The notes: generated by a model not told the origin, from the sequence alone. A stretch of 64,000 bases of DNA from an uncultured Lachnospiraceae bacterium (GCA_902789735.1 CADAOZ010000007.1:43250-107249), one strand, 5' to 3'; shown: positions 1,930 to 52,582, numbered from the stretch's first letter. Numbers and translations: made by a program.

Positions 1930-3564
<1,635 letters not shown>

Positions 3565-3589
3565 TTATGAAAATCAGTCTGTGATGAGA

Positions 3590-3877
3590 TCAGTCCTCAA
3601 TGACCGCGAGAATATCGCTCTGCTTGACAATGATATACTTCTCGGTATCAAGCTTGACTTCGGTTCCCGCGTATTTGGAATAAATGACCTTGTCGCCGGC
3701 TTTGACCTGCATGACAACTTCCTTGCCGTCTACAACACCGCCGGGACCGGCCGCAATGACTTCCGCCTGCTGGGGCTTTTCCTTGTCCTGGCCTGGAAGA
3801 ACGATACCGGATTTGGTGGTGGTCTCCGCCTCAAGCTGCTTTAAAACAACTCTGTCACTTAAAGGTACTAACTTCAT
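3590..3877 (-). CDS. groS: Co-chaperonin GroES (Hsp10)
   Basis: 95 aa: MKLVPLSDRVVLKQLEAETTTKSGIVLPG...GDKVIYSKYAGTEVK. Lies immediately upstream of groL on the same strand. Confidence 0.97.
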   Translation of the reverse strand: MKLVPLSDRVVLKQLEAETTTKSGIVLPGQDKEKPQQAEVIAAGPGGVVDGKEVVMQVKAGDKVIYSKYAGTEVKLDTEKYIIVKQSDILAVIED

Positions 3878-3951
3878 TTTTCTGCCTCCTTATGAGAAGA
3901 TGATGCGTCCACAGGGTATACGGGACGCAGCTTGCTTATTTTTTGAGGTTG

Positions 3952-3978
3952 TTAGCACTCAACATGATTGAGTGCTAA
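3952..3978 (-). promoter_or_regulatory. CIRCE operator (HrcA binding site) upstream of groES
   Basis: Perfect consensus TTAGCACTC-N9-GAGTGCTAA read directly at 3952-3978. It sits 75 bp upstream of the groES start, with TATAAT-like sequence nearby. Confidence 0.92.
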
Positions 3979-4254
3979 CTCTATGAGGTATAATAGTTTT
4001 CAGGCTGTACAGTTGCAAATCGGTTCATGTACAGTTTTTCTCTTATTTTCTCTATAATTCTCACTATATCTCTTTATTTCTCTCTTTTTCTTATTCCAGA
4101 TATTTTTATCCTGGCGCCGGAAGATATAAACACTGCCAAAAAAACCGGCCGCGGCAGAAGCGCGGCCGGATCCCATAGCAGTCCGGTATTTCCGGGGATT
4201 ATTTCCATATTATTGAGGCTCCGTCATTGCCGGGGCCTCCGGTCCGCTGCCGGA

Positions 4255-6438
4255 TCAGGTATCCAGCCGCTGGCGGCTGACCAGGTCCGCAAAGAAGCCG
4301 TTCTTCTCGATCAGCTCCTCATAGGTGCCGTCCTCAATGATCCTGCCCTGGTCCAGGACCAGGATCCTGTCACAGTGGCGGATGGTCGAAAGACGGTGGG
4401 CGATGACGATCCTCGTGCATTTAAGGGCGTCCAGGGCCTCCGTGACCTTCTTCTGGGTATGGTTGTCCAGCGCGGAGGTCGCTTCATCGAACATGAGGAT
4501 CCTGGGCTTGCCCGCGACGGCTCTGGCGATCATGATCCTCTGCTTCTGGCCGCCGGAGATACCGCCCTGCCCTTCTCCGATGATGGTCATCATGCCCATG
4601 GGCATTTCCCGGATATCATCGGCCAGACCGGCCATTTCGGCCGCGTCCCAGGCCCCCTGCATGGTCAGTGACGGGGCCGAGATGGAAATATTTTCATAGA
4701 TACTGCCCATGAAGAGCTTGCCGTTCTGCATGACGGTGCCGATCTTCTGGCGCAGGGACTTGAGGTCCAGTCTGGCTATGTCCTTCCCGTCATAATAGAC
4801 CGCGCCTTTGGAAGGGGTCTCGAAACCCAGCAGGAGCCGCATCAGGGTGGATTTGCCGCAGCCGGTCCTGCCGACGATGGCCACATACTGGCCGGGCCGG
4901 ATCTTCAGGTTCATGCTGTCAATGACAAGGGGCATGCTGTCATTATAGCGGAAGGAGACATTGCTCATCTCAATGCCGCCGCTCAGTCTGGAGATGACCT
5001 GTTTGCCTTCTGCCGTTTCCGGCACTGCCTTGAAGAAGGGCTCCACCATCTCCAGGACGGGGCGGATCTCCGCGACTGTAGTCGCAATGCCCGACAGGCT
5101 GGAAAAAGCGCCGAAGACCATGCCGTAAGAAGCGGTAAAAGCGTAGTAGTCCGCCGTGGTAATATTACTCTGGATAGCCAGATAGTAAAAGATTACCGTG
5201 CTGATCAGGCCCAGGGCCGTGGTGATGGTGCCGTTGATCCGCAGGAACAGAGGCAGGTTATAGGTCAGGGAAGCGGATTTTGAAAAGGTATCCGCCCATT
5301 TGGCGAATGCCCTCTTTTCCGCGCCGGCCAGACGGATCTTCTGCACGCCGGAAATCAGGGAATAGCTCAGGCCGTTCTCTTTGGCAGACAGCTCCATCTG
5401 CTGCTTGCTGATCCGCATCTGGACCAGGGTCGTTACCATACTGAAGCACACCGTGATCACGATGATGATCAGGGCCGGTACGGCCATGGAAGGCGCGAAA
5501 GAACGGATCTGCGCGATGTAAAGGAGCGATGTGACGGAAGTCAGTCCGGTCGAGAAAATGATCATGGACAGGGTATTGCAGAGGGTGCTCACATACTGGG
5601 TCCTGGTCTGCAGATCACCGGAACTGTATTGTTTAAAGAAACTGGCCGGCAGGGACAGGACCCGCATCATGACCGCGGATTCGACCTGCATGCTCATCTG
5701 GGATTCAATTCTGGAATTGACCATCTGCTTGGCGATGGACAGGAGGTTCTCCGAAATCCTGACGCAGATCATAAAGACCGCAATGGCAATCAGGATCCGG
5801 ACGCTTTTGCTGTCCACCACATCACTGAACAGGAACTGCTGCAGCCTGGGGGAGATCATACCTACCAGGGTACAGATCAGGGTAACAATGATCATCAGGA
5901 CGACGTCGGATTTGGTCACAGTCCCCAGGATATAGCTGAACATATCCTTGATGGTCAGCTCCCGCAGGGGAAAGGGCTTGTAAAAACACAGGCCTTCCTC
6001 TTCAAAAAGCTGTTCCGTGCTGCTGTCGACCTTACGGCGTTCTCCGGTCTCCGGGTCCAGGAAAGTATATCCCATGATATTGCCGGGGATCAGGGCCGTA
6101 ACCATGCCTGTGTCTTTACGGACGGCCAGCATGGGACCGCAGGCATCCTTATACCAGCCCTTCTCCAGCTTGACGGTCCGGTGCATCAGGCCGTGGGGAC
6201 GCATCAGGTAATCCAGCTGATCCGTCCACTCCCGGATATTGTCCGGCACATCCTGCAGCTTGTAGTGATAATACTTCAGGATCTCATCAATGGCGTTCTT
6301 GGCACGTGCACGCTCATCCTTGAGGGCGGATTCCGCTTTGGCGCCCATGACCGCGCCGGCCATACGGATAAAAGAATCCTGGAACTGCTCGTCGTCGCTG
6401 ATCTTTCGTTGTTTTATCTGTTCATCAAACCAACCCAT
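4255..6438 (-). CDS. Bacteriocin/peptide-export ABC transporter (permease plus ATPase) without a peptidase domain, of the NHLM/NHLP-type second ABC subunit family
   Basis: 727 aa. The ~160-aa N-terminal domain lacks the C39 Cys/His residues. A six-helix transmembrane domain follows. Walker A is GRTGCGKST, the ABC signature is LSGGQKQR, and Walker B is ILMFDEATSALD. RBS GGAGG precedes the ATG at 6438. Confidence 0.85.
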   Translation of the reverse strand: MGWFDEQIKQRKISDDEQFQDSFIRMAGAVMGAKAESALKDERARAKNAIDEILKYYHYKLQDVPDNIREWTDQLDYLMRPHGLMHRTVKLEKGWYKDACGPMLAVRKDTGMVTALIPGNIMGYTFLDPETGERRKVDSSTEQLFEEEGLCFYKPFPLRELTIKDMFSYILGTVTKSDVVLMIIVTLICTLVGMISPRLQQFLFSDVVDSKSVRILIAIAVFMICVRISENLLSIAKQMVNSRIESQMSMQVESAVMMRVLSLPASFFKQYSSGDLQTRTQYVSTLCNTLSMIIFSTGLTSVTSLLYIAQIRSFAPSMAVPALIIIVITVCFSMVTTLVQMRISKQQMELSAKENGLSYSLISGVQKIRLAGAEKRAFAKWADTFSKSASLTYNLPLFLRINGTITTALGLISTVIFYYLAIQSNITTADYYAFTASYGMVFGAFSSLSGIATTVAEIRPVLEMVEPFFKAVPETAEGKQVISRLSGGIEMSNVSFRYNDSMPLVIDSMNLKIRPGQYVAIVGRTGCGKSTLMRLLLGFETPSKGAVYYDGKDIARLDLKSLRQKIGTVMQNGKLFMGSIYENISISAPSLTMQGAWDAAEMAGLADDIREMPMGMMTIIGEGQGGISGGQKQRIMIARAVAGKPRILMFDEATSALDNHTQKKVTEALDALKCTRIVIAHRLSTIRHCDRILVLDQGRIIEDGTYEELIEKNGFFADLVSRQRLDT

Positions 6439-6485
6439 GGTATTCCTCCCGGGCTTCCGAAACAGGTGCTGAAAGCAAATCGTGT

Positions 6486-8672
6486 TTATTCATTGGTAAC
6501 AAGAGCCGCGTAGGCGCCGCCCTTCGCATAAAGTTCATCGTGGGTGCCCCGTTCCACGACCTTGCCGTGATCGAGTACGATGATCTCGTCGGAATCACGG
6601 ATGGTGGAAAGGCGGTGGGCGACCACAATGCAGGTGATGCCCCTGTCACGGATGGCCTTGACGACCTCATACTCGGTCTTGGCGTCCAGGGCCGAGGTGG
6701 CCTCATCCAGAATGATGATGGTCGGATCCTGGGCCAGAACACGGGCGATCTCCATCCGCTGGCGCTGGCCGCCGGAAAAGTCCCGTCCGCCTTCTGTGAT
6801 CCGGTATTCATAACCGCCGTCACGCTGCATGATATCATCATGGATCTGGGCGTCTCTGGCGGCCAGGATGACCTCAAAGTCCTCGATGCTGTTGTCCCAC
6901 ATACGTATATTGTTGGCAATGGTATCTTCGAACAGGATGATATCCTGATCGACGACCGCCAGGGAGCCCGTAAAGACGCCTCTGTCGATCTCCGTGCATT
7001 TCTTTCCGTCAAACAGGATCTCGCCGCTCCAGGGATGGTAGAGGCCCGAGATCAGTTTGGAAATGGTGGATTTGCCGCAGCCGGAGGAACCGACCAGAGC
7101 GATCCTGCTGCCGGGCTTCATGGTCAGGTTGAAATCCTCGATCAGAGGTTTGGCCAGCCTGGAATAGCCGAAGGTCACATGTTTGAGCTCAACCGTACCG
7201 GACAGCTTGTCATATTCCAGTTTTTCATCGTAATCATCATTGGCCAGGACCGGGTCATCCGGATACTGCATGACGTCTTCGATCCGTTCCATGGAGGTCC
7301 GCATCTCCTGCAGGGTCTGGCCGGCGGAGGTCAGCCTGGTGGCAGGCGACATAAAGCTGGACAGATAGCCCTGGAACTGGGTGATCAGACCGATGGTGAA
7401 CTGGCCCTGCATGGTCAGGTAGACGCCCATGATGACGACCAGTACGTTGGTGATCATGGACACCAGGGAAGGGATCATGCCCAGATACTGATTGATCAGG
7501 TTATATTTGACGTCCTGGGTGTTGACACTGGCCTGATAGCCGGCCCATCTCTCAAAGTAACCTTCTTCCGCGCCCGTGGATTTGATGGATTCGATCATCT
7601 CGATACCGGCCACGGTAGCACCGGCCAGCTTGCCGCTGTCACGCATCTGGACACGGGTGATGTTGATCCTCCGGGCGGATATGATCCTGGACATGAAGAT
7701 ATTGATGACCATGGAAGTCAGGCCCAGAATGGTCAGTACCGCGCTGATCCGCAGCATGACGGCCAGATAAAAGACCATCATGACAGAATCCAGGAACAGA
7801 GGCGCGAAGGTATTGATCAGGTTGCCGGCTATGACCGCGTTGGTGCCCTTACGCTGCTGGATATCCCCGGCCATCCGCTGGGAATAGAATTCCATGGGCA
7901 GGCGGAGCACCTTCCACATATAGGTGGAATTGCCCACAATGGACATTTTGCCGTTGATCCGCAGGCTGTAGATCTCCCGCATGCCCGCGATCAGGATCTC
8001 CAGGGCCGTAAAAGCGGCCAGGGCGATGATAAAGGGCATGGCCCAGTCCGGATTCCTGCCCACCAGCAGCCGGTCGAAGAATACCCTCGAGAAGCCCGGA
8101 TTGATCAGGTTGAGGAGCGAGGAGATCACTGAGGACATAACAATAAAAGCGGCCGCTGAACCGGCCCCTTTCATCCTTGCTTTGGCGAAATCAAGCACAC
8201 TCTTCTGTTTGCCGCTGGGTTCAAAGTTCTCTCCCGGCCAGAACATCAGGCAGATTCCCGTAAAGGCTTTGTCAAATTCCTCCATGGTAATCTTTACCTC
8301 GCCTCTGGCAGGGTCATTGATCACAGCGTAGTTTCCCCTGAAACCATCCAGCACCACAAAATGGTTGAAATTCCAGTGGATGATACAGGGAAATTCTCCG
8401 TTCTCCTTAAGGATCTCCGGCTCGAACCGGTACCCTTTGGCTTCCAGACCGTAATTTCTCGCCGCGATCAGTATATTTTTCGCGTTGGATCCGTCCCTGG
8501 AAACGCCGCAGTCCGTCCGGACCTGCTCCAGGGGTATCCATTTCTCATAATATGCCAGGACCATGGCCAGGCAGGCCGCCCCGCATTCCAGGGCTTCCAG
8601 CTGCATGACGACCGGAACCTTTGCCACGCCTTTGCTGACCGGGTCCTTGACTTTTACCTTGCTGCTGCTCAT
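6486..8672 (-). CDS. Peptidase C39 (double-glycine leader) ABC transporter, ATP-binding/permease protein
   Basis: 728 aa. The N-terminal C39 domain carries the catalytic Cys (QLEALECGAACLAMVL) and His (HWNFNHFVVL). A transmembrane domain follows. Walker A is GSSGCGKST, the signature is FSGGQRQR, and Walker B is IIILDEATSALD. Confidence 0.9.
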   Translation of the reverse strand: MSSSKVKVKDPVSKGVAKVPVVMQLEALECGAACLAMVLAYYEKWIPLEQVRTDCGVSRDGSNAKNILIAARNYGLEAKGYRFEPEILKENGEFPCIIHWNFNHFVVLDGFRGNYAVINDPARGEVKITMEEFDKAFTGICLMFWPGENFEPSGKQKSVLDFAKARMKGAGSAAAFIVMSSVISSLLNLINPGFSRVFFDRLLVGRNPDWAMPFIIALAAFTALEILIAGMREIYSLRINGKMSIVGNSTYMWKVLRLPMEFYSQRMAGDIQQRKGTNAVIAGNLINTFAPLFLDSVMMVFYLAVMLRISAVLTILGLTSMVINIFMSRIISARRINITRVQMRDSGKLAGATVAGIEMIESIKSTGAEEGYFERWAGYQASVNTQDVKYNLINQYLGMIPSLVSMITNVLVVIMGVYLTMQGQFTIGLITQFQGYLSSFMSPATRLTSAGQTLQEMRTSMERIEDVMQYPDDPVLANDDYDEKLEYDKLSGTVELKHVTFGYSRLAKPLIEDFNLTMKPGSRIALVGSSGCGKSTISKLISGLYHPWSGEILFDGKKCTEIDRGVFTGSLAVVDQDIILFEDTIANNIRMWDNSIEDFEVILAARDAQIHDDIMQRDGGYEYRITEGGRDFSGGQRQRMEIARVLAQDPTIIILDEATSALDAKTEYEVVKAIRDRGITCIVVAHRLSTIRDSDEIIVLDHGKVVERGTHDELYAKGGAYAALVTNE

Positions 8673-8688
8673 CCTTTTCTCCTGCCTG

Positions 8689-9174
8689 TCAACGTGAAGA
8701 TATGATAAAGGAAATAGGCCTGATCTTTTCGATCACCAGCACCCCGTTATAGGTGCCGTCGTCCAGACTGAGCTGCGTTGTGACCGGATACAGGACTTCC
8801 GCCCCCGTCAGCCCTTCCAGGGACAGGGCTTCTTCCGTTAAAACACTGGCCGCAATGACAGACTGGCTGGTATCCACCTCCACCGGAACGGAGTCATCCC
8901 CTACTTCCAGCCTGGTGTCTTCATTGATATCCTCACTGACAACAGCCGTTACGTAGCAGGTGCCTTTTCCTTTTTCCACACTGACCTGCAGATCCGTCTT
9001 TGTGACCAGATGGCCAAAGACCCCCCAGAGGATGATTCCCACCAGCAGGATGATGGCCGCTGCAAGAAAGATCCATATCCCGGGACTTGTGACTCTGATA
9101 TAATCATTGAGCTGCTCCGGCGATTCGATCCGGTCCAGGCTCTTCTTTCTGAAAATACTGTTCTTTTCACTCAT
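8689..9174 (-). CDS. HlyD-family bacteriocin secretion accessory protein, unusually short (161 aa)
   Basis: The N-terminus FRKKSLDRIESPEQLNDYIRVTSPGIWIFLAAAIILLVGIILWGVF matches the conserved start of LcnD/HlyD-like peptide secretion proteins (cytoplasmic tail, signal-anchor helix). Only ~110 aa of periplasmic domain follow and there is no long coiled coil. Confidence 0.7.
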   Translation of the reverse strand: MSEKNSIFRKKSLDRIESPEQLNDYIRVTSPGIWIFLAAAIILLVGIILWGVFGHLVTKTDLQVSVEKGKGTCYVTAVVSEDINEDTRLEVGDDSVPVEVDTSQSVIAASVLTEEALSLEGLTGAEVLYPVTTQLSLDDGTYNGVLVIEKIRPISFIISSR

Positions 9175-9207
9175 AGCTTTTGTCCGTTCTCTGCTCTCCT
9201 GGCGGGA

Positions 9208-9615
9208 TCATGCGTTTTTGGTCATGGTCAGGATGTTCTCACCGCCGGTACGGCTGTATTCCAGCTTATCCATGTTCTTTTTGACCATAAAAATGCCCAG
9301 TCCCCCTATAGGCCTGTCTTCCGCGCCCAGCGTGATGTCCGGATCTGATTTGCCAAGAGGATCATATGGAATCCCCCTGTCCCTGAATACAATGATAAAG
9401 CGTCTGTCCGCGCTGCTGCCGCTGATCTGGATGTCCGCGTGACCGATCCTTCCGGGATAGGCGTATTGGGCAATGTTGACGAAGATTTCTTCTACAGATA
9501 TATCGATCTGCATCTGCGCCTTCATAGGGCAGCCGGCTTCCTCCAGATATGAATCGATGAACATAAGGACCTGCGGCAGATTGTCGACTTTCGCTTCAAT
9601 ATTTAAATTTTTCAT
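9208..9615 (-). CDS. Anti-sigma regulatory factor (GHKL Ser/Thr kinase of the RsbW/SpoIIAB type)
   Basis: 135 aa. N-box-like EEIFVNIAQYA, G1 DRGIPYD, G2 GGLGIFMVKK. The size and motifs are those of partner-switching kinases. Confidence 0.8.
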   Translation of the reverse strand: MKNLNIEAKVDNLPQVLMFIDSYLEEAGCPMKAQMQIDISVEEIFVNIAQYAYPGRIGHADIQISGSSADRRFIIVFRDRGIPYDPLGKSDPDITLGAEDRPIGGLGIFMVKKNMDKLEYSRTGGENILTMTKNA

Positions 9616-9664
9616 GCTCTTATACCCTGTTTAAATACCGGCGATGCTGCGTCCTTCCTGCTCT

Positions 9665-9961
9665 TTACTCGATCGTGAGAATATCACTGAAGCCGGTGAC
9701 TTCGAAAACCTCCATAACAGGGTCACAGACATGGATCAGCTTCATGCTGCCCTGCTTATTCATGACTTTCTGGGCAGAGAGCAGAACTCGAAGGCCTGCG
9801 GAAGAAATATACTCCAGATTCGTAAAGTCCAGGGTCAGATCCGTGATCCCGTTCAGAGAACGGCGGAGTTCTGTCTCGAGAGCCGGCGCTGTCATGGTAT
9901 CCAGCCTGCCTTCTACCTTGATTGTTAATTCTGTTCCGTTCAATGCTTTCCTGATTTCCAT
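9665..9961 (-). CDS. STAS-domain anti-sigma factor antagonist (SpoIIAA/RsbV-like)
   Basis: Trimmed to the ATG at 9961 (MEIRKALNGTELTIKVEGRLDT...), which has a GGAGG RBS 7 nt upstream. The conserved phosphorylatable region is DLTLDFTNLEYISSAGLRVLL. The ORF-track N-terminal extension lacks an RBS. Confidence 0.8.
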   Translation of the reverse strand: MEIRKALNGTELTIKVEGRLDTMTAPALETELRRSLNGITDLTLDFTNLEYISSAGLRVLLSAQKVMNKQGSMKLIHVCDPVMEVFEVTGFSDILTIE

Positions 9962-10289
9962 TTCTATCCTCCAAAAATATTTATGAACATAGTTGAGATA
10001 TCCTGAGATTTTATTATAAACCATACATGCCGTAGTAGCAAACAGGAGCCGGTAAAAAATAAAAGCCTTCCGCCTTCCTGTACGCGTTCTGTTATGTGCC
10101 GTTATCAGATATGCAAAAACCTTTTATCAGATTTAGAACATCCTGAAATCGTTTTTCCGCAACTTTCTGAAGGGTTTTAAAAATTACTGTTGCATCCGGC
10201 AGAATCCGGTGCTATAGTAAATGTAGTTTTGATAACTACATCTTAGCGTTTTCATTATTTTTAACGGCCTGGCACGCCGGAAAGGATGC

Positions 10290-10556
10290 ATGAACATGAC
10301 TGTAAAAGATTTAAAGAAATTCTTCAAAGAGCACCTGGTCCCCGCCAATGTGTACAGCTTTAAAGGCGGCAACCATAAGAACAGGATCTGCATGGGACGT
10401 ACCAAAAAAGGCTGGGAGATCTATTTCAGCGACAAAAAGAAGAAGATCGGCCTGATGCAGTTCGCCAGCGAAAGTGAAGCCTGCATGCGCATGAAGGAGG
10501 AGGTCCTCAAACTCATGGAGCAGGTCTACGGACTGAGCTGGAGAAATTTTGCCTGA
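10290..10556 (+). CDS. Small hypothetical protein (86-88 aa), Lys-rich with 3 Cys. Possible double-glycine-type leader (…VPANVYSFKGG).
   Basis: AAAGGA RBS at 10281-10286 favours the second ATG (10296, MTVKDL). Codon usage is genome-typical. It is followed by a strong terminator. I recognise no family. Confidence 0.5.
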   Translation: MNMTVKDLKKFFKEHLVPANVYSFKGGNHKNRICMGRTKKGWEIYFSDKKKKIGLMQFASESEACMRMKEEVLKLMEQVYGLSWRNFA

Positions 10557-10624
10557 TCCGGCAGGAACGCTCTTTTGTTTACTTCCTATAATTATTATTT
10601 ACTATCCTTCTATTCATCTCTCAG

Positions 10625-10655
10625 AAAACCGCCGCAGGCCCTGCGGCGGTTTTTG
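10625..10655 (+). terminator. Rho-independent terminator after the small ORF
   Basis: AAAACCGCCGCAGG-CC-CTGCGGCGGTTTTT: a perfect GC stem followed by a T run. Confidence 0.75.
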
Positions 10656-10662
10656 ACGCCGC

Positions 10663-10692
10663 AAAAAAGACCGCCACTCCGAAGAGTGGCGG
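10663..10692 (-). terminator. Rho-independent terminator of ppdK
   Basis: On the minus strand: GCCGCCACTC-TTCG-GAGTGGCGG followed by TCTTTTTT, 50 nt after the ppdK stop. Confidence 0.75.
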
Positions 10693-10739
10693 CCTCGTTT
10701 ACGTCAGATCTTGTCAGATCCCGGGGGATCCGTCGCTTC

Positions 10740-13373
10740 TTATGCTTCGCCGTGGGCGATGGCTGCCTGTGCCGCTGCCAGTCTGGCAATCGGTACACGG
10801 AAAGGTGAGCAGGATACATAATCCAGGCCGATCTTGTCGCAGAACTCGATGGAGGAAGGATCTCCGCCGTGCTCGCCGCAGATACCCGCGTGCAGGCTGG
10901 GACGTACCTTCTTGCCCTTTTCGATGGCGATTTCCATCAGCAGGCCTACGCCGGTCTGGTCCAGCTTGGCGAAGGGATCGCCTTCCAGGATCTTGGCGTC
11001 ATAGTAGGCGCCAAGGAACTTGGAGGAATCGTCACGGGAGAAGCCATAGGTCATCTGGGTCAGGTCGTTGGTACCGAAGCAGAAGAACTCAGCCTCTGTC
11101 GCGATGGCGTCCGCTGTCAGAGCCGCGCGGGGGATCTCGATCATGGTACCGACTTCATACTTGAGGTCGGAGCCTGCCGCCTTGATCTCAGCGTCAGCTG
11201 TAGCAACAACGACGTCCTTGACATACTTCAGTTCCTTGACCTCGCCGATCAGGGGGATCATGATCTCGGGAACCAGATCCCAGTCAGGATGCTCTGCCTT
11301 GACGGCGATCGCCGCGCGGATAATGGCAGTGGTCTGCATCTTGGCGATTTCAGGATAGGTAACTGCCAGACGGCATCCGCGGTGGCCCATCATGGGGTTG
11401 AATTCCTTGAGGCCTTCAATGATTGCCTTGATGGCTTCTACACTCTTATCCTGGGCCTTGGCCAGTTTCTCGATGTCAGCTTCCTCAGTGGGAACGAACT
11501 CATGCAGAGGCGGATCCAGGAAACGGATGGTAACGGGATCACCTTCCATGGCCTCAAAGAGACCCTTGAAGTCGCCTTCCTGCAGAGGCTCGATCTTCTC
11601 CAGAGCCGCTTCTCTTTCTTCGATGGTATCGGAGCAGATCATCTCACGGAATGCAGCGATCCTGTCCTCATCGAAGAACATATGCTCTGTACGTACAAGG
11701 CCGATGCCTTCCGCGCCGAGCTCTCTTGCCTTCTTCGCGTCGCGGGGCGTATCCGCGTTGGTGCGGACTTTCAGTCTGCGATACTTGTCTGCCCATCCCA
11801 TGATGCGGCCGAATGTACCGGAGATCTGGGCGTCGACAGTAGGGATGGTGCCGTCATAGACACAGCCTGTCGTGCCGTCGAAGGAGATGATATCGCCTTC
11901 ATGATATACTTTGCCGGCCAGTGTGAACTGCTTGTTGGCTTCATCCATGATGATGTCGCCGCAGCCGGATACGCAGCAGACGCCCATACCGCGGGCAACA
12001 ACTGCAGCGTGGGAGGTCATGCCGCCGCGGACAGTCAGGATACCCTGGGCTGCCTTCATGCCGGTGATGTCCTCAGGAGAGGTCTCCAGACGTACCAGAA
12101 CGACCTTCTCGCCTCTGGCTGCCCATTCCTCAGCGTCTTCCGCTGTGAAAACGATCTTACCGCAGGCTGCGCCGGGAGCTGCGCCCAGAGCCTTGGCGAT
12201 GGGGGTCGCTGCCTTCAGAGCGTTGGCGTCGAATGTAGGATGAAGCAGTGTATCCAGGTTACGGGGATCGATCATGGCGACCGCTTCCTTCTCGGTCCTC
12301 ATGCCTTCGTCAACGAGGTCACAGGCGATCTGCAGAGCGGCCTGCGCGGTCCTCTTGCCGTTACGTGTCTGCAGCATGTACAGTTTGCCGTGCTCTACGG
12401 TGAACTCCATATCCTGCATGTCTCTGTAGTGGTTCTCGAGGATGCTGCATACTTCCTTGAACTGATTGAAAGCTTCAGGGAACTTCTGCTCCATCTCGGT
12501 GATGTGCATGGGAGTACGGACGCCTGCGACAACGTCTTCACCCTGGGCGTTGGTCAGGAACTCACCGAAGAGGCCCTTGGCGCCTGTAGCGGGGTCACGT
12601 GTGAAAGCAACGCCGGTACCGCAGTCATCACCCATGTTGCCGAATGCCATGGACTGGACGTTAACGGCTGTGCCCCAGCTGTAGGGGATATCATTGTCAC
12701 GTCTGTAAACATTGGCACGGGGGTTGTCCCAGGAACGGAAAACAGCCTTGATGGCGCCCATCAGCTGCTCCTTGGGATCGGACGGGAAATCTTCTCCCAG
12801 TTTCGCCTTATATTCAGCCTTGAACTGGTCTGCCAGCTTGTGCAGATCATCCGCGTCCAGCTCAACGTCAAGCTTGACGCCCTTTTCCTCTTTCATCTGG
12901 TCGATCAGGGCCTCAAAATACTTTTTGCCGACTTCCATAACAACGTCGGAATACATCTGGATGAATCTTCTGTAGCAGTCCCATGCCCAGCGGGGATTGC
13001 CGGACTGCTCCGCGATGGTGTTGACAACTGTCTCATTCAGACCCAGGTTCAGGATGGTATCCATCATACCGGGCATGGATGCTCTCGCGCCGGAACGAAC
13101 GGAAACGAGGAGCGGGTTCTTGGCATCGCCGAACTTCTTGCCTGTAATCTCTTCCATCTTGCCGATATACTCGTTGATCTCAGCCATAATGGAAGGATTG
13201 ATCTCACGGCCGTCCTCATAATACTGGGTGCAGGCTTCGGTTGTGATGGTGAAGCCCTGAGGAACCGGGAGACCGATGTTGGTCATCTCTGCCAGGTTAG
13301 CGCCCTTGCCTCCAAGGAGCTCTCTCATGTCTGCGTTGCCTTCGCTGAAAAGGTAACAATACTTTTTGCTCAT
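10740..13373 (-). CDS. ppdK: Pyruvate, phosphate dikinase
   Basis: 877 aa. MSKKYCYLFSEGNADMRELLGGKGANLAEM, the catalytic His region GGMTSHAAVVARGMG, and the PEP-utilising C-terminal TIM domain. GGAGG RBS. Confidence 0.95.
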   Translation of the reverse strand: MSKKYCYLFSEGNADMRELLGGKGANLAEMTNIGLPVPQGFTITTEACTQYYEDGREINPSIMAEINEYIGKMEEITGKKFGDAKNPLLVSVRSGARASMPGMMDTILNLGLNETVVNTIAEQSGNPRWAWDCYRRFIQMYSDVVMEVGKKYFEALIDQMKEEKGVKLDVELDADDLHKLADQFKAEYKAKLGEDFPSDPKEQLMGAIKAVFRSWDNPRANVYRRDNDIPYSWGTAVNVQSMAFGNMGDDCGTGVAFTRDPATGAKGLFGEFLTNAQGEDVVAGVRTPMHITEMEQKFPEAFNQFKEVCSILENHYRDMQDMEFTVEHGKLYMLQTRNGKRTAQAALQIACDLVDEGMRTEKEAVAMIDPRNLDTLLHPTFDANALKAATPIAKALGAAPGAACGKIVFTAEDAEEWAARGEKVVLVRLETSPEDITGMKAAQGILTVRGGMTSHAAVVARGMGVCCVSGCGDIIMDEANKQFTLAGKVYHEGDIISFDGTTGCVYDGTIPTVDAQISGTFGRIMGWADKYRRLKVRTNADTPRDAKKARELGAEGIGLVRTEHMFFDEDRIAAFREMICSDTIEEREAALEKIEPLQEGDFKGLFEAMEGDPVTIRFLDPPLHEFVPTEEADIEKLAKAQDKSVEAIKAIIEGLKEFNPMMGHRGCRLAVTYPEIAKMQTTAIIRAAIAVKAEHPDWDLVPEIMIPLIGEVKELKYVKDVVVATADAEIKAAGSDLKYEVGTMIEIPRAALTADAIATEAEFFCFGTNDLTQMTYGFSRDDSSKFLGAYYDAKILEGDPFAKLDQTGVGLLMEIAIEKGKKVRPSLHAGICGEHGGDPSSIEFCDKIGLDYVSCSPFRVPIARLAAAQAAIAHGEA

Positions 13374-17570: not shown

Positions 17571-19313
17571 ATGCCTTCTATTGACCTGCATACACATTCC
17601 ACAAAATCCGACGGAACACTGACGCCGGCACAGCTTGTAGAGATGGCCCGGGAGCTGGGCCTGGCCGCCCTGGCCCTGACCGACCATGATTCGGTCGACG
17701 GAATCGCGGAAGCTGAAGAAGCTGCGGAACGCTTTTTCATGGAGTCTCCGGCAGAGGATTCGGCCGGCTGCTCCCCGGAGCCCGCGTCCGGGTATGGGAC
17801 GGAGCTGGTGCCCGGGGTGGAGGTGTCCACCGAATATAAGGGCCGCAGCGTCCACATCGTGGGCCTGTTCCCGGACTGGCGCAATCCCCGCTTCCGGGAA
17901 TCTCTGCGCCGCTTTTCCGATGCCCGGGAGGAGCGCAATCGCAAAATGTGCGAGCTTCTGCGCGGGAAAGGCGTAGACATTTACTATGAAGATCTGTGCA
18001 GAGCCTTTCCCGGCAACATCATCACCCGGACCCATTTTGCCCGCTATATGCTGCAGAAAGGCTATATATCCAGAACCTGGGAAGCTTTCCAGACTTATAT
18101 CGGGGATGACCGGCCCTGCTTTGTGCCCAGGATCAAGATCTCGTCCACCGACGCAGTCCGGTTTCTTCTGCGCTTCCATGCCTTTCCGGTCCTGGCGCAC
18201 CCGATCCAGTACTACAGCGCCTTTTATGATCTGGAGGAACTGCTGGCCGATCTGAAGGCTGCCGGCCTGCAGGGAATCGAATGCTATTACGGCAGCCATA
18301 CCATGTACGATTTTCAGACCATCAGCCGCTATGCTTCCGAATACGGCCTGCTGCCTTCCGGAGGTTCCGATTTCCATGGAGCCAACAAACCCGGCCTGCG
18401 CATGGGGGTCGGCTACGGACACATGTCCATTCCCGCCAGGGTCCTGACCGATATCAAACACGCCCATTACCATACAGGAGACAGCACCCGGATTTTCTTC
18501 TGCGACTTTGACGGTACCCTGGCCCGCACAGATAAGAGCGTCAGCCCGTACAGCCGGGAGGTTCTGGACCGCTGGACGGCCGCCGGCCATCGCTTCGTCT
18601 TCAGCAGCGGACGGATCATGGCGGATATTAAAGTCCAGATCCGCAGGCTGGGCCTGCATCTGCCGGGCATGCTGCTCAGTGCCTGCAACGGCGCGGAAAT
18701 CTATGACTGTGACAGCGGAGTAACCCTGTATAAAAGGACCCTGAACCGGGACCAGATCCGGAAGATCCAGGCCATTGCCGATTCCATCGGCCTCTTCTGC
18801 CTGACGCATTCGGACAGCCGTTTCTATGTCCCCCGGGAGGGGCCGGAAACCGAATTTTACTTCCGTACGGTCAGAATCCCCTACAATGTCTGTGAGGATC
18901 TGGCGGAGGCTGTCGATGAACTGCCCTGCAAGATCCATACCGTCAGTCTGGAGGATCCGGACAAACTGTTGAAGTTCCGTCGGCTCGTCGGGGAAGCGTT
19001 CGGGGATGAACTGAATATTTACCGGACCCATCCCTGTTATGTGGAAGTCGTCCCCGGCGGGGTCAGCAAAGGCCATGCCCTGCAGTGGCTGTGCCGCCGG
19101 CTGGGCATCCGGCCGGAAAACAGTCTGGCCGCAGGTGATTCCGAGAACGATCTGTCCATGCTGCAGGCGGCGGCCACCGGAATCCTGATGCGCAACGGGG
19201 CCGAAATGAACCCCTATCTGAAGGACGGAGCCGATCTGGTCACAGAATATGACAATGACCAGGACGGACTGGCCAGGACCCTTGCGTCTATCCTGGACCG
19301 GATAGATGCCTGA
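17571..19313 (+). CDS. Fusion protein: N-terminal PHP-family phosphoesterase (TrpH/YciV-like) plus C-terminal Cof-type HAD hydrolase
   Basis: N-terminal MPSIDLHTHSTKSDGTL...LALTDHDSV is the PHP metal-binding signature. C-terminal IFFCDFDGTLA ... GDSENDLSMLQAA gives HAD motifs I and IV. AAAGGA RBS before the ATG at 17571. Confidence 0.8.
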   Translation: MPSIDLHTHSTKSDGTLTPAQLVEMARELGLAALALTDHDSVDGIAEAEEAAERFFMESPAEDSAGCSPEPASGYGTELVPGVEVSTEYKGRSVHIVGLFPDWRNPRFRESLRRFSDAREERNRKMCELLRGKGVDIYYEDLCRAFPGNIITRTHFARYMLQKGYISRTWEAFQTYIGDDRPCFVPRIKISSTDAVRFLLRFHAFPVLAHPIQYYSAFYDLEELLADLKAAGLQGIECYYGSHTMYDFQTISRYASEYGLLPSGGSDFHGANKPGLRMGVGYGHMSIPARVLTDIKHAHYHTGDSTRIFFCDFDGTLARTDKSVSPYSREVLDRWTAAGHRFVFSSGRIMADIKVQIRRLGLHLPGMLLSACNGAEIYDCDSGVTLYKRTLNRDQIRKIQAIADSIGLFCLTHSDSRFYVPREGPETEFYFRTVRIPYNVCEDLAEAVDELPCKIHTVSLEDPDKLLKFRRLVGEAFGDELNIYRTHPCYVEVVPGGVSKGHALQWLCRRLGIRPENSLAAGDSENDLSMLQAAATGILMRNGAEMNPYLKDGADLVTEYDNDQDGLARTLASILDRIDA

Positions 19314-19340
19314 GCGATGGCTTCCATCTGTTTTAGTTAT

Positions 19341-19391
19341 AAAAAGGGAATGTACACACGCCCTGCCGGGCGGATATACATTCCCTTTTTT
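19341..19391. terminator. Bidirectional rho-independent terminator between convergent genes
   Basis: AAAAAGGGAATGTA-(22-nt loop)-TACATTCCCTTTTTT: a 14-bp stem flanked by an A run and a T run. Confidence 0.8.
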
Positions 19392-19515
19392 ATTTTGTCA
19401 TGATTCCGTTTTTCTATCCCTGCGCCGTACGGTCATTTTCGGACGGACATTTTCCATATGATCTTTCCGTCCGGCATTTCCGGAAAGCCCTTGTCCGTCT
19501 TCCCGCCGGAATCCC

Positions 19516-20931
19516 TTACTCTCTGCCGTTCCAGCAATAGGTGCAGAGGCAGTCGGGATTGATGCCGATGGAAGCGATCATATCATCCAGGCGCTGGTAG
19601 CGCAGGGAGGTGAATTTCAGACGTTCACAGATCTTATCCAGCATCTTATGATAGCGGTCGCTGTCAGGATTGGCGTAATCCTCCAGGATCGTGCGCTCGA
19701 CCGCCCCTCCTTCTTCCTCGTTGATGATCCGTCTGGCGATCAGTTCCATTTCGGAAGTGGATCTGGAGAAATTGATATATTTGCAGCCGAACAGGATGGG
19801 CGGGCAGGCCGGACGGACATGGACCTCTCTGGCCCCGCTGTCGAACAGGTACTCTGTGGTCTCCCGCAGCTGGGTGCCGCGGACGATGGAATCATCGATC
19901 AGCAGCAGACTTCTGTCCTGGATCAGTTCCCGGACGGGAATCAGTTTCATCTTGGCGATCAGGTTGCGCTTCTCCTGGATGGTAGGCATAAAGGATCTGG
20001 GCCAGGTAGGGGTATATTTGATGAAGGGCCTGGAGAAAGGCACCCCTGACTGATTGGCGTAACCTACCGCATGGGCCGTACCGGAGTCCGGCACACCGGC
20101 CACTACATCAATATCCACACTGTGATTATCCCGTTCTGCCAGGGCTTTACCGCAGTCATAACGCATCTGCTCCACCGAAACGCCCTCATAACGGGAGGAC
20201 GGATAGCCGTAGTAGACCCAGAGGAAAGTACAGATCCGCATTTTCCTGCCGGGATCGGCCAGGGTGGTGACCCCTTCCGGGGTAATGACCACGATCTCAC
20301 CGGGTCCCAGTTCCTTCAGATCCCGGTAGCCCAGGTTCAGATAGGCAAAGGACTCAAAGGAGGCGCAGCAGCCGTCCTCTTTCTGGCCCAGGATGACAGG
20401 GGTCCGGCCGTAGCGGTCCCTGGCACAGTAGATGCCGTCCGGGGTCATCAGCAGGATGGTCATGGAGCCGTCGATCAGCTCCTGGGCATATTGGATGCCC
20501 TCTACCAGGTTATCCTTCTGGTTGATGATGGCCGCGGTCAGTTCCGTTGCGTTGATGGTGCCGCCGCTCATCTCCAGGAAATGGGTGCGGCTGCCTTTGA
20601 AGACCTGCTCGACCAGCTGGTCCGTATTGTTGATCTTACCGACCGTACTGATGGCGTAAGTGCCATGGTGAGAACGGACGATCAGGGGCTGGGGCTCAAA
20701 ATCCGAAATACAGCCGATGCCCAGCTGGCCTTCCATACGTCCGACTTCCTTGTCAAATTTCGTTCTGAAGGGGGAATTCTCAATATTGTGAATCGCTCTG
20801 TTAAAGCCCAGATTCCTGTCATAGACCGTCATACCGGCACGCCTGGTGCCCAGATGGGAATGATAGTCTGTGCCGAAATAAAGGTCAAACATACAATTCG
20901 TCTTGGAAGCTGCTGCAAAAAATCCACCCAT
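19516..20931 (-). CDS. Amidophosphoribosyltransferase-like protein (PurF family paralog lacking the N-terminal Cys nucleophile)
   Basis: Trimmed to the ATG at 20931 (MGGFFAAASK...), which has an AAGGAG RBS. The type-I PRTase PRPP motif is LLLIDDSIVRGTQL. The glutamine-amidotransferase-like N-terminal half begins MGG rather than MCG. Confidence 0.75.
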   Translation of the reverse strand: MGGFFAAASKTNCMFDLYFGTDYHSHLGTRRAGMTVYDRNLGFNRAIHNIENSPFRTKFDKEVGRMEGQLGIGCISDFEPQPLIVRSHHGTYAISTVGKINNTDQLVEQVFKGSRTHFLEMSGGTINATELTAAIINQKDNLVEGIQYAQELIDGSMTILLMTPDGIYCARDRYGRTPVILGQKEDGCCASFESFAYLNLGYRDLKELGPGEIVVITPEGVTTLADPGRKMRICTFLWVYYGYPSSRYEGVSVEQMRYDCGKALAERDNHSVDIDVVAGVPDSGTAHAVGYANQSGVPFSRPFIKYTPTWPRSFMPTIQEKRNLIAKMKLIPVRELIQDRSLLLIDDSIVRGTQLRETTEYLFDSGAREVHVRPACPPILFGCKYINFSRSTSEMELIARRIINEEEGGAVERTILEDYANPDSDRYHKMLDKICERLKFTSLRYQRLDDMIASIGINPDCLCTYCWNGRE

Positions 20932-51661: not shown

Positions 51662-51662
51662 G

Positions 51663-52385: not shown

Positions 52386-52582
52386 AGTTATATCCTCCAT
52401 GGAATAAATCCTTTTTTCTGATATGTTTTGTTTTTCTGAGTTCCGTTTGTTTTGATGTGACTGATTTACTGCCTTGTTTCTGTTTACATCCTGAGGATAA
52501 CGCGCGGACCTTTCCGGGAAACACCAAAAACCTTAACCTTTCCTTAAACAGAACAAAAAAGAAACAAATCAAAAAAGAAACA

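What the first reader, a model, noticed from the sequence alone, without database searches (positions are those of the whole stretch)
4255..9961. One operon joins a partner-switching module to a double-glycine peptide export machine, with no sigma factor and no canonical precursor nearby
Five minus-strand genes are packed with gaps of 0-50 nt: STAS antagonist, RsbW/SpoIIAB-type GHKL kinase, short HlyD-like protein, C39-peptidase ABC exporter, and a second peptidase-less ABC exporter. The last three are the NHLM/NHLP-type bacteriocin export triad described by Haft and colleagues. I am not aware that an anti-sigma/anti-anti-sigma pair at the head of such an operon has been described. There is no sigma factor within at least 10 kb on either side. 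Partner-switching pairs are known to control non-sigma targets, for example type III secretion in Bordetella and biofilm in Vibrio. The pair here may therefore gate peptide export or immunity post-translationally. Alternatively it may titrate a distant ECF/sporulation-type sigma that drives a precursor gene elsewhere.
Basis: partly seen in the sequence, partly recalled or inferred. Interest (0 to 1): 0.8.

Follow-up and report, generated by a model that had tools for sequence, protein, structure and literature searches.

The report
Phospho-switch pair welded to a peptide exporter
A rumen Lachnospiraceae bacterium carries an intact five-gene operon that joins a STAS/kinase "partner-switching" signalling pair to a double-glycine peptide export pump, a pairing that recurs in many gut and rumen Clostridia species and that I could not find described, so it points to an extra, unstudied control layer on bacterial peptide secretion.

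Summary
Window 4255-9961 (minus strand) holds five intact genes with gaps of 16-49 nt. They lie between a sigma-70-like promoter and a strong terminator. The genes are:
- a STAS antagonist;
- an RsbW-like GHKL kinase;
- a 161-aa membrane-fusion (HlyD-like) stub;
- a C39-peptidase ABC exporter (TIGR03796, 917 bits);
- a peptidase-less ABC (TIGR03797, 714 bits).

The 64 kb window has no sigma factor among the ORFs tested, and no PP2C phosphatase, Nif11/GG-leader precursor or radical-SAM maturase.

The arrangement is not a one-off. Of 42 related loci with full flanks, 29 carry STAS and 27 carry a GHKL domain next to the same exporter triad. These genes are almost always on the same strand and upstream. 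Fuller relatives add further parts:
- membrane-sensor PP2C phosphatases;
- MATE::GHKL fusion proteins;
- an ECF-like sigma factor with its own small partner ORF and promoter;
- arrays of Nif11-leader precursors;
- a radical-SAM maturase.

The window therefore holds a stripped-down version, kept under purifying selection (dN/dS 0.04-0.16 for the four genes compared with its closest relative).

The functional coupling of switch and exporter is well supported. The direction and target of the switch are not resolved. My preferred reading, at about 0.4, is a post-translational gate on the export machine. Control of a sigma factor encoded elsewhere is the main rival. Six literature searches and one paper read found no description of this linkage.

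The parts
10013..10041 (-). sigma-70-like promoter candidate (TTGCTA, 17-nt spacer, TATAAT), about 50 nt upstream of the STAS start codon
   Evidence: 10 of 12 consensus matches, the best site in 3500-11000. This is a consensus match only, not proof of function. The ECF-type motif of the relatives (TAACA-N15-18-CGTAT) is absent here.
9665..9961 (-). STAS-domain anti-sigma-antagonist-like protein (98 aa). The predicted phospho-acceptor is Ser54, in YISSAGLRVLL.
   Evidence: PF01740, and TIGR00377 at 69 bits above its cutoff. SpoIIAA equivalog: 45 bits against a cutoff of 115, so not met; the motif Y-[ILV]-SSAGLRVLL is invariant in 107 family members; nearest solved relatives are 4HYL (E 1e-11) and RsbV 6M36_B (E 1e-9); dN/dS 0.085 against L005.
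9208..9615 (-). RsbW/SpoIIAB-like GHKL serine kinase (135 aa, HATPase_c_2)
   Evidence: PF13581, 84 bits. RsbW 30 bits against 145 and SpoIIAB 16 bits against 135, so it is neither equivalog; the N-box (E42, E43, N47), G1 (D79, G81) and G2 (G104-G107) are invariant in 23 homologs. RsbW 6M36 at only E 8e-5; dN/dS 0.054.
8689..9174 (-). Short membrane-fusion (HlyD-like) accessory protein (161 aa): a cytoplasmic FRKKSLDR..SPEQLNDY motif, one transmembrane helix, and a small beta-barrel
6486..8672 (-). Peptidase-containing ABC exporter (PCAT; C39 peptidase + transmembrane domain + nucleotide-binding domain), 728 aa
   Evidence: TIGR03796 916.8 bits against a cutoff of 853.3. Cys30, His104 and Asp120, Walker A, ABC signature and Walker B are all present; the C39 domain scores 257 bits against LahT150 (PDB 6MPZ). 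PCAT1 4RY2 scores 310 bits.
4255..6438 (-). Second, peptidase-less ABC exporter subunit, 727 aa
   Evidence: TIGR03797 713.9 bits against a cutoff of 709.4. Walker A, signature and Walker B are intact; the N-terminal 175 aa show no detectable similarity to the C39 domain by BLASTP; dN/dS 0.038.
4145..4169 (-). Intrinsic-terminator-like hairpin (9 GC pairs followed by a T-run) that closes the operon
   Evidence: this is the strongest terminator-like site in 3500-11000. groES follows downstream.

Best explanation
What it is (shown). This is the minimal form of a widespread clostridial cassette. In that cassette a STAS/GHKL partner-switching pair is co-transcribed with a Gram-positive-type Nif11/NHLP-class double-glycine peptide exporter, made of a short membrane-fusion stub, a C39-peptidase ABC and a second ABC.

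How it most likely works (inferred).
- The GHKL kinase phosphorylates the STAS protein on the invariant Ser54.
- A PP2C phosphatase reverses this. It is encoded elsewhere in this genome, and in relatives it is a membrane-sensor protein encoded in cis.
- The phosphorylation state of STAS decides whether STAS or the GHKL protein is free to bind the export machine.
- Peptide processing and export are thereby gated after translation, in response to an envelope or membrane signal.

The substrate would be one or more GG-leader (probably Nif11-type) peptides encoded outside this 64 kb window. In fuller relatives, precursor transcription is handled separately by an ECF-like sigma factor with its own promoter and small partner ORF, and often by a LytTR/AgrC-like two-component system as well. 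On this reading the partner switch is an additional layer that is not transcriptional.
For: **1. Tight, conserved linkage to the exporter**
- In 42 full-flank loci anchored on the short HlyD-like protein, 29 have STAS, 27 a GHKL domain and 23 a PP2C.
- 44 of 46 STAS genes are on the exporter strand (p = 3e-11) and 41 of 46 lie upstream (p = 4e-8).
- STAS or GHKL lies within 200 nt upstream of the short HlyD-like gene in 33 of 80 loci, often with gaps of 3-13 nt or 4-nt overlaps.
- The linkage survives rearrangement. L004 has the triad first and the pair after it. L039 and L047 have the switch genes divergent from the triad.
- The taxonomic spread is wide: Lachnospiraceae, Oscillospiraceae, Ruminococcus, and even the spirochaete Bullifex porci.

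**2. The pair stays with the exporter when everything else is gone**
- The window and L005 keep only these five genes.
- dN/dS is 0.038-0.157 for the four genes compared, and flanks are syntenic.

**3. The ECF-like sigma tracks the exporter and precursors, not the switch**
- Switch by sigma: 14/15/4/9, p = 0.33.
- In GHKL-anchored metagenome loci, sigma is present in 6 of 7 with an exporter and 1 of 10 without (p = 0.004).
- The sigma has its own abutting small ORF (29 of 34 hits).
- Its promoter motif TAACA-N15-18-CGTAT sits before that small ORF/sigma pair and before precursors in 21 of 30 hits. It sits before switch genes in only 3.

**4. GHKL domains of this family are often fused to membrane proteins**
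- 19 MATE::GHKL and 9 sensor-PP2C::GHKL, against 26 free copies.
- A fused phosphatase-kinase acting on a free STAS resembles SypE/SypA, where the output is not a sigma factor (own knowledge).
- A GHKL domain fused to an exporter is a Rosetta-stone hint that free GHKL proteins also dock on exporters.

**5. The parts look active**
- Kinase motifs, the STAS serine, the C39 triad and both ATPase sites are intact.
Against: - No physical interaction was tested. No tool here can model complexes.
- STAS proteins from loci with and without an exporter are barely distinct: 65.5% identity within a context and 60.4% between, with nearest neighbours partly mixed.
- 10 of 17 long GHKL-anchored loci have no exporter. 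The module is therefore generic, and the exporter cannot be its only target.
- An ECF-like sigma sits directly beside switch genes in some relatives: sigma-STAS-MATE::GHKL in L038 and L071, and sigma next to PP2C/GHKL in L075.
- I found no exporter feature specific to loci that carry the switch. The N-terminal extension of ABC2 is present in all 77 copies.
- The resemblance to MlaB is only 20 bits against a cutoff of 90.
- The window has no phosphatase, so the switch cannot be shown to be reversible from this sequence.
Confidence: 0.4

Rival explanations
1. Classical anti-sigma cascade. The GHKL protein sequesters a sigma factor encoded elsewhere in this genome, for example the ECF-like sigma seen in relatives or a group-3 sigma. 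Dephosphorylated STAS releases that sigma, which then transcribes precursor and maturase genes located elsewhere. The exporter is only a co-transcribed passenger of its regulators.
For: - The pair is homologous to RsbV/RsbW and SpoIIAA/SpoIIAB.
- 18 of 42 full-flank relatives carry an ECF-like sigma in the cassette, with TIGR02937 scores of 97-113 bits.
- In L038 and L071 the order is sigma-STAS-MATE::GHKL. In L075 the sigma sits next to PP2C/GHKL.
- That sigma's promoter motif precedes Nif11 precursor genes.
Against: - Sigma presence is independent of switch presence (p = 0.33). It follows the exporter instead: 6 of 7 against 1 of 10.
- The sigma has its own obligate, abutting small partner ORF.
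- To my knowledge, RsbW-type kinases are known to hold group-3 sigma factors, not ECF ones.
- Many GHKL domains here are tethered to 12-TM MATE proteins or to sensor phosphatases.
- No sigma was found among the tested ORFs of the window, and the sigma profile found nothing in 64 kb.
- In L001-L003 the precomputed Pfam lists show no sigma domain near the pair.
Confidence: 0.25
2. Signal-and-receiver co-inheritance. The partner switch, together with sensor PP2C and MATE::GHKL proteins, is the reception pathway for the exported peptide or for the envelope stress it causes. Its output lies elsewhere in the cell, for example immunity, competence-like behaviour or sporulation. The genes sit beside the exporter in the way agrBDCA or comCDE keep signal production and sensing together.
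For: - The PP2C partners carry membrane sensor modules: 5TMR-LYT, HAMP, CHASE2 and dCache.
- The switch co-occurs with LytTR/AgrC-like two-component genes (19/10 against 3/10, p = 0.019).
- The module also exists without exporters.
Against: - The stripped window operon keeps STAS and GHKL but no sensor phosphatase.
- Translational-coupling-like spacing between STAS or GHKL and the short HlyD-like gene suggests stoichiometric co-production with the pump.
Confidence: 0.2
3. Chance juxtaposition, or a decaying remnant. A generic stress or sporulation pair happens to lie upstream of an orphan exporter that is losing function.
For: The window has no precursor, maturase, sigma or phosphatase.
Against: - The same adjacency recurs in dozens of species-level genomes, with strand and order bias at p about 1e-8 to 1e-11.
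- All catalytic motifs are intact.
- dN/dS is 0.04-0.16 against L005 for the four genes compared.
- SpoIIAA, SpoIIAB and RsbW equivalog scores fall far below their cutoffs.
Confidence: 0.05

Closest known systems
NHLM/NHLP-Nif11 bacteriocin export triad (TIGR03794/03796/03797; Haft et al. 2010, PMC2887384)
   Same: The two ABC subunits pass the curated cutoffs of TIGR03796 and TIGR03797. Relatives sit beside arrays of Nif11-leader precursors, as that paper described.
   Different: - The HlyD component is reduced to 161 aa (a transmembrane helix plus a beta-barrel) and fails TIGR03794.
- No precursor lies within 64 kb here.
- A STAS/GHKL pair heads the operon, a feature that paper does not mention.
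LahT of Lachnospiraceae bacterium C6A11 (C39 domain LahT150, PDB 6MPZ; Bobeica et al. 2019, PMC6363468) and PCAT1 (PDB 4RY2)
   Same: The window's C39 domain aligns to LahT150 over 142 residues at 257 bits, about 80% identity. LahT150 removes Nif11-type leaders from LahA1-7 at the GG site. Full-length similarity to PCAT1 is 310 bits.
   Different: LahT is described as encoded with nine LahA precursors, whereas the window has none. I could not retrieve the lah locus, so whether it carries STAS/GHKL is untested. LahT itself was not among the 120 listed homologs.
RsbV-RsbW-RsbU/P and SpoIIAA-SpoIIAB-SpoIIE partner-switching modules
   Same: A STAS protein with a conserved phospho-serine loop, a GHKL kinase with N, G1 and G2 boxes, and SpoIIE-type PP2C phosphatases in the relatives.
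   Different: - Equivalog scores are far below cutoff: RsbW 30 against 145, SpoIIAB 16 against 135, SpoIIAA 45 against 115.
- No sigma gene follows the kinase. The exporter genes occupy that position.
- Homology to solved RsbW is only E 8e-5.
Partner switches with outputs other than a sigma factor: Vibrio SypE/SypA, Bordetella BtrU/V/W (type III secretion), Pseudomonas HsbR/HsbA (own knowledge; Bordetella reviewed in PMC7498569, listed but not read)
   Same: A STAS phospho-switch genetically tied to a secretion or export process rather than to a sigma gene. Relatives carry fused phosphatase-kinase proteins (PP2C::GHKL), as in SypE.
   Different: The exporter is of a different kind (a PCAT ABC pump in Gram-positive bacteria). 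No experimental data exist, and sequence relatedness to those systems was not tested here.
MlaB-MlaF (a STAS protein as accessory subunit of an ABC ATPase; own knowledge)
   Same: It sets a precedent for a small STAS protein binding the nucleotide-binding domain of an ABC transporter.
   Different: The window's STAS scores only 19.9 bits against the MlaB model (cutoff 90). MlaB is not known to me to be controlled by a GHKL kinase.

Membership tests
NHLM/NHLP-Nif11 export triad | Peptidase/permease/ATPase subunit reaches the TIGR03796 cutoff | tested here: met
   916.8 bits against 853.3.
NHLM/NHLP-Nif11 export triad | Peptidase-less permease/ATPase subunit reaches the TIGR03797 cutoff | tested here: met
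   713.9 bits against 709.4, a marginal pass.
NHLM/NHLP-Nif11 export triad | HlyD-type secretion protein reaches the TIGR03794 cutoff | tested here: not met
NHLM/NHLP-Nif11 export triad | Catalytic C39 Cys/His/Asp, plus Walker A, signature and Walker B motifs in both ATPases | tested here: met
   Cys30, His104 and Asp120. GSSGCGKST / FSGGQRQR / ILDEA in the first ABC and GRTGCGKST / ISGGQKQR / MFDEA in the second.
NHLM/NHLP-Nif11 export triad | NHLP or Nif11-leader precursor gene(s) in the neighbourhood | tested here: not met
   None in 64 kb: leader HMM best E about 1, and no GG-leader regular-expression hit in a plausible ORF. This feature is met in 31 of 42 full-flank relatives.
RsbV/RsbW- or SpoIIAA/SpoIIAB-type partner-switching module | STAS protein with a conserved phosphorylatable serine | tested here: met
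   Ser54 in YISSAGL. Both serines are invariant in 107 homologs. The alignment to RsbV Ser56 rests on my own knowledge.
RsbV/RsbW- or SpoIIAA/SpoIIAB-type partner-switching module | GHKL serine kinase with intact ATP-binding boxes | tested here: met
   PF13581 at 84 bits. The N-box, G1 and G2 boxes are invariant.
RsbV/RsbW- or SpoIIAA/SpoIIAB-type partner-switching module | Equivalog-level identity to RsbW, SpoIIAB or SpoIIAA | tested here: not met
   RsbW 30.5 bits against 145, SpoIIAB 16.4 against 135, SpoIIAA 45.4 against 114.75.
RsbV/RsbW- or SpoIIAA/SpoIIAB-type partner-switching module | Cognate sigma factor gene adjacent to the kinase | tested here: not met
   No sigma domain in the ORFs tested and no hit for the sigma profile in the window. 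An ECF-like sigma is present in 18 of 42 relatives, usually after ABC2.
RsbV/RsbW- or SpoIIAA/SpoIIAB-type partner-switching module | PP2C (SpoIIE/RsbU-type) phosphatase partner | tested here: not met
   No PP2C in the window by phmmer or by profile search. Present in 23 of 42 relatives, with membrane sensor domains.
Non-sigma-output partner switch (SypE/SypA, BtrUVW type) | The STAS phospho-state controls a secretion or export process without a sigma intermediary | not testable with these tools
   Only genomic linkage is available. Testing this needs genetics or interaction assays.
MlaB-like STAS accessory subunit of ABC transporters | Reaches the MlaB model cutoff, or binds an ABC nucleotide-binding domain | tested here: not met
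   19.9 bits against 90. Binding is not testable here.

The most novel reading that the evidence does not exclude
Partner-switching modules of this clostridial family are regulators of membrane export machines rather than of sigma factors. The STAS Ser54 phospho-switch, set by free, MATE-fused or phosphatase-fused GHKL domains and by membrane-sensor PP2C phosphatases, would directly open or close the PCAT peptide exporter, and by analogy the MATE transporters.

In the fuller cassettes this could also control the ECF-like sigma indirectly. That would happen if the small leader-like ORF fused to the sigma operon, which ends in ...SELExNAAG|, is an anti-sigma factor or pheromone that the gated exporter removes, giving a FlgM-style checkpoint.
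Probability: 0.35. Interest if true: 0.8.

Novelty: new variant of a known kind. Interest (0 to 1): 0.6.

Why it matters
Both halves are textbook systems: partner switching, and double-glycine peptide export. Their conserved fusion into one cassette across gut and rumen Clostridia does not seem to have been noticed.

If the switch gates export directly, three things would follow.
- It would be the first serine-phosphorylation control of a PCAT-type pump.
- It would extend non-sigma partner switching to Gram-positive peptide secretion.
- It would give a handle for turning on silent RiPP or bacteriocin clusters from gut anaerobes, including the LahT family that is already used as a biotechnological leader protease.

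If the switch instead controls a sigma factor, it would still define a new regulatory input for a large, uncharacterised family of Nif11-leader peptides with radical-SAM maturases. Cultured carriers make it testable: Murimonas intestini DSM 26524, Oscillibacter sp. GMB15532, Bullifex porci and strain D16-36.

Tried and rejected
- **Sporulation or SigB pair.** Rejected. The SpoIIAA, SpoIIAB and RsbW equivalog scores are far below cutoff.
- **Precursor hidden in the flanks.** Small-ORF listing around the operon, a Nif11-leader HMM and two GG-leader regular expressions over all six frames of the 64 kb found nothing credible. The one regular-expression hit lies in a short reading frame on the minus strand inside a plus-strand gene.
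- **STAS or GHKL as the exported substrate.** No GG-leader motif at either N-terminus, read directly from the sequence.
- **The 88-aa divergent ORF at 10290-10556 as precursor or regulator.** It has no family hit, and L005 is the only one of the 164 fetched loci that also has it.
- **ECF promoter in front of the window operon.** Absent. The two loose matches elsewhere in the window are at chance level.
- **Remnant hypothesis.** Rejected by dN/dS and by the intact motifs.
- **Exporter feature specific to switch-carrying loci.** The N-terminal extension of ABC2 is present in all 77 homologs, so it does not discriminate. By BLASTP the ABC2 N-terminus shows no similarity to the C39 domain.
- **Retrieving the LahT locus.** I wanted to see whether it carries the pair. 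LahT was not among the 120 listed homologs, whose best identity to LahT150 is 79%.
- **Rfam scan of 3500-11000.** Only two sub-threshold sRNA matches.
- **Literature.** Six full-text searches found no paper that links partner switching to NHLM/PCAT exporters. This is absence within the searchable open-access library only.
Full report
**1. Observation**

The window carries five consecutive minus-strand ORFs at exactly the coordinates given.
- STAS, 9665-9961, 98 aa. A GGAGG ribosome-binding site precedes the ATG at 9961.
- GHKL, 9208-9615, 135 aa.
- A short HlyD-like protein, 8689-9174, 161 aa.
- A C39-peptidase ABC exporter, 6486-8672, 728 aa.
- A second ABC, 4255-6438, 727 aa.

Gaps between the genes are 49, 33, 16 and 47 nt. 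Family assignments are as follows.
- STAS: PF01740, and TIGR00377 at 69 bits above its cutoff.
- GHKL: PF13581, 84 bits.
- First ABC: TIGR03796, 916.8 bits against 853.3.
- Second ABC: TIGR03797, 713.9 bits against 709.4.
- The 161-aa protein matches only the first 78 of 421 positions of TIGR03794 (35 bits against 156).

A TTGCTA-17-TATAAT site lies about 50 nt upstream of the STAS gene. A 9-bp GC hairpin with a T-run follows ABC2. Nothing comparable separates the genes. A single transcript is thus likely but not shown.

**2. The parts look functional**

- The STAS loop YISSAGLRVLL contains the serine that aligns with RsbV Ser56 (own knowledge). Both serines and the following AGLR are invariant in 107 family members.
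- The kinase N-box (E42, E43, N47), G1 (D79, G81) and G2 (G104-G107) are invariant in 23 homologs.
- The C39 triad (Cys30, His104, Asp120) and both sets of Walker and signature motifs are present.
- Against the closest relative (L005, uncultured rumen Lachnospiraceae RUG578), dN/dS is 0.085 for STAS, 0.054 for GHKL, 0.157 for the short HlyD-like protein and 0.038 for ABC2. The flanks are syntenic over about 19 kb.

The operon is therefore maintained by selection and is not decaying.

**3. What is absent from the window**

- The surroundings are housekeeping genes: RelA/SpoT, GroES/EL, pyruvate phosphate dikinase, GDPD, an ABC-F protein, polyphosphate kinase and Ppx, and RF-1.
- No sigma domain was found in any ORF tested.
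- Profiles built from the relatives' ECF-like sigma, PP2C, MATE and radical-SAM proteins find nothing in the 64 kb.
- A Nif11-leader HMM and GG-leader regular expressions find no credible precursor.

Note that only 4.2 kb of sequence exists on the low-coordinate side.

**4. Comparative genomics, anchored on the exporter**

An alignment of the short HlyD-like family finds relatives in 540 species-level genomes. I fetched 80 loci with flanks of up to 10 kb. The triad of short HlyD-like protein, PCAT and ABC2 accompanies the anchor wherever the fetched contig reaches far enough.

Iterated profile searches of all six-frame ORFs gave these counts for the 42 loci with at least 8 kb upstream and 5 kb downstream:

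| Feature | Loci (of 42) |
|---|---|
| STAS | 29 |
| GHKL domain | 27 |
| SpoIIE-type PP2C | 23 |
| MATE protein | 15 |
| ECF-like sigma | 18 |
| Radical-SAM/SPASM enzyme | 18 |
| Nif11-leader precursors | 31 |

Position and strand are strongly biased.
- 44 of 46 STAS genes are on the exporter strand (p = 3e-11).
- 41 of 46 lie upstream (p = 4e-8).
- In 33 of 80 loci, STAS or a GHKL-containing gene ends within 200 nt of the short HlyD-like gene's start, often 3-13 nt away or overlapping it.

The gene order varies between loci.
- STAS-GHKL-pump.
- STAS-PP2C-GHKL-pump.
- STAS-MATE::GHKL-PP2C::GHKL-pump.
- Pump-STAS-GHKL, as in L004.
- Switch genes divergent from the pump, as in L039 and L047.

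The carriers span Lachnospiraceae, Oscillospiraceae, Ruminococcus, Oscillibacter, Murimonas and the spirochaete Bullifex porci. A linkage that persists through rearrangement and across such distances indicates functional coupling.

**5. What the fuller cassettes contain**

Pfam and NCBIfam scans of representatives and direct reading of the ORFs show the following.
- Membrane-sensor PP2C phosphatases with HAMP or 5TMR-LYT domains. Related modules elsewhere carry CHASE2 or dCache.
- PP2C::GHKL fusions of about 670 aa.
- MATE-family transporters with a C-terminal HATPase_c_2 domain.
- LytTR response regulators and AgrC-like kinases.
- An ECF-like sigma of about 165 aa (TIGR02937, 97-113 bits).
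- Tandem arrays of 1-11 precursors with Nif11-like leaders ending ...ELSDEELDNVAGG, followed by cores of about 30 to 85 aa. TIGR03798 scores 29 bits, just under its cutoff of 32.
- A radical-SAM/SPASM maturase of about 465 aa.

The window's C39 domain aligns at 257 bits to LahT150 (PDB 6MPZ). LahT150 was shown to remove Nif11-type leaders from LahA peptides of a rumen Lachnospiraceae. A Nif11-type substrate encoded elsewhere is therefore the best guess for this window.

**6. Is the kinase the anti-sigma of the ECF-like sigma?**

Several results argue against a simple yes.
- Among exporter loci, sigma presence is independent of switch presence (14/15/4/9, p = 0.33).
- I scanned metagenome contigs with the GHKL alignment and fetched 80 loci. 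Of the 17 with at least 5 kb on both sides, 15 have STAS, 10 PP2C, 8 MATE and 7 the exporter. Sigma is present in 6 of the 7 with an exporter and in 1 of the 10 without (p = 0.004). The sigma therefore belongs to the peptide cluster and not to the switch.
- The sigma gene is preceded by a conserved ORF of about 61-80 aa (LFDFQRF..N.RL...L.DSELE.NAAGE) that abuts its start in 29 of 34 cases. This ORF has no Pfam family.
- A clear ECF-type promoter motif, TAACA-N15-18-CGTAT, lies upstream of this small ORF/sigma pair (13 hits) and of Nif11 precursor genes (8 hits), out of 30 exact hits in 4.04 Mb. Only 3 hits precede switch genes, and about 15 hits are expected by chance overall. The window has no such site near the operon.
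- Of 59 GHKL domains in the exporter loci, 19 are fused to MATE transporters, 9 to sensor phosphatases, and 26 are free short proteins. This is unusual for a protein that sequesters a sigma factor. It is reminiscent of SypE-type enzymes, whose only job is to set the phosphorylation state of a STAS effector (own knowledge).

Some results point the other way. In L038 and L071 the order is sigma-STAS-MATE::GHKL, and in L075 the sigma is followed by PP2C and GHKL hits.

**7. Is the exporter the target?**

The linkage data, the tight spacing and the MATE::GHKL fusions fit a model in which the GHKL and STAS proteins dock on export machines. There are caveats.
- STAS proteins from loci with and without an exporter are barely separable: 65.5% identity within a context and 60.4% between, with nearest neighbours partly mixed.
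- More than half of the long GHKL-anchored loci lack the exporter.
- I found no exporter feature specific to switch-carrying loci.
- The switch co-occurs with LytTR/AgrC-like two-component genes (p = 0.019). That fits either a layered control of production or a peptide-sensing role.

My probabilities are therefore:

| Reading | Probability |
|---|---|
| Post-translational gating of the pump | about 0.4 |
| A sigma factor encoded elsewhere as the target | about 0.25 |
| A signal-reception role | about 0.2 |
| Chance juxtaposition or remnant | about 0.05 |
| Other | the remainder |

**8. Comparison with what is known**

- The two ABCs are members of the Haft NHLM/Nif11 export families. The adaptor is a truncated variant that fails the family cutoff.
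- The pair belongs to the STAS and HATPase_c_2 superfamilies. It is not an RsbV/RsbW or SpoIIAA/SpoIIAB equivalog. Solved RsbW is matched only at E 8e-5.
- Six full-text searches and a reading of Haft et al. 2010 found no description of a partner switch attached to such exporters. That is absence within an open-access library, not proof.

**9. Verdict**

- The association is conserved and appears to be unreported.
- This window holds its minimal form.
- The claim that the absence of a sigma and a precursor is special is weakened by relatives that have both.
- The mechanism is open but directly testable in cultured carriers.

I rate this a new variant of known kinds of system, with interest 0.6.

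Noticed in passing
L020:6158-7909, L071:4802-6523, L002:710-2506 and 18205-19953: MATE-family transporters (12 TM, PF01554) carry a C-terminal HATPase_c_2 (RsbW-like) domain. There are 19 such fusions in the 80 exporter loci. They also flank a STAS-GHKL-PP2C module that has no exporter (L002). I know of no description of this architecture.
   Followed up: partly
e.g. L024:15670-15867, L066:14998-15183, L056:11696-11917 (each upstream of the sigma gene): A conserved ORF of about 61-80 aa (LFDFQRFxxNxRL...LxDSELExNAAGE) abuts or overlaps the start of the ECF-like sigma in 29 of 34 hits. It has no Pfam family. Its C-terminal part resembles the recognition helix of a Nif11 leader, with AG in place of GG, followed by a charged tail of 10-15 aa. 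It could be an anti-sigma factor, or an induction peptide exported by the pump.
   Followed up: partly
e.g. L070 around 14933, L033 around 9883 and 10689, L012 around 14516: An ECF-type promoter motif, TAACA-N15-18-CGTAT(A/C)A, lies upstream of the small-ORF/sigma pair and of the Nif11 precursor genes (21 of 30 exact hits in 4 Mb). This defines the local regulon of the sigma. The motif is absent from the window operon.
   Followed up: yes
L038:3861-4493 and L071:3802-4404: Two ECF-like sigma ORFs carry C-terminal tails that contain ...LPSVTGG| or ...LNSVTGG| followed by 12-27 more residues. This looks like a double-glycine cleavage site on a sigma factor.
   Followed up: no
L052:9887-14468, L055:14969-17456, L061:7598-11044: Arrays of up to 11 tandem Nif11-leader precursors have unusually long cores, about 30 to 85 aa. 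Many share a K(Y/F)xxGDRV-type motif or Cys-rich zinc-ribbon-like patterns. They lie next to one radical-SAM/SPASM enzyme and look like small secreted proteins rather than classical RiPPs.
   Followed up: no
L006:3810-8063: A single-module NRPS-like protein (condensation, AMP-binding, PP-binding and reductase domains; 1417 aa) sits between STAS and the PP2C in two loci (L006 and L058).
   Followed up: no
L074 (Bullifex porci, Spirochaetota): The same cassette, STAS-MATE::GHKL-...-PP2C::GHKL-short HlyD-like-PCAT-ABC2, occurs in a spirochaete. This suggests horizontal transfer from Clostridia.
   Followed up: partly
window 10290-10556 (+): An 88-aa ORF lies divergent from the operon and has coding-like GC3 (0.71). 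It has no family hit. L005 is the only one of the 164 fetched loci that also has it.
   Followed up: partly
window 50909-51670 and 51663-52400 (-): Two tandem DUF975 membrane-protein paralogs lie next to an OmpR-type response regulator (50134-50832). They appear unrelated to the finding.
   Followed up: no
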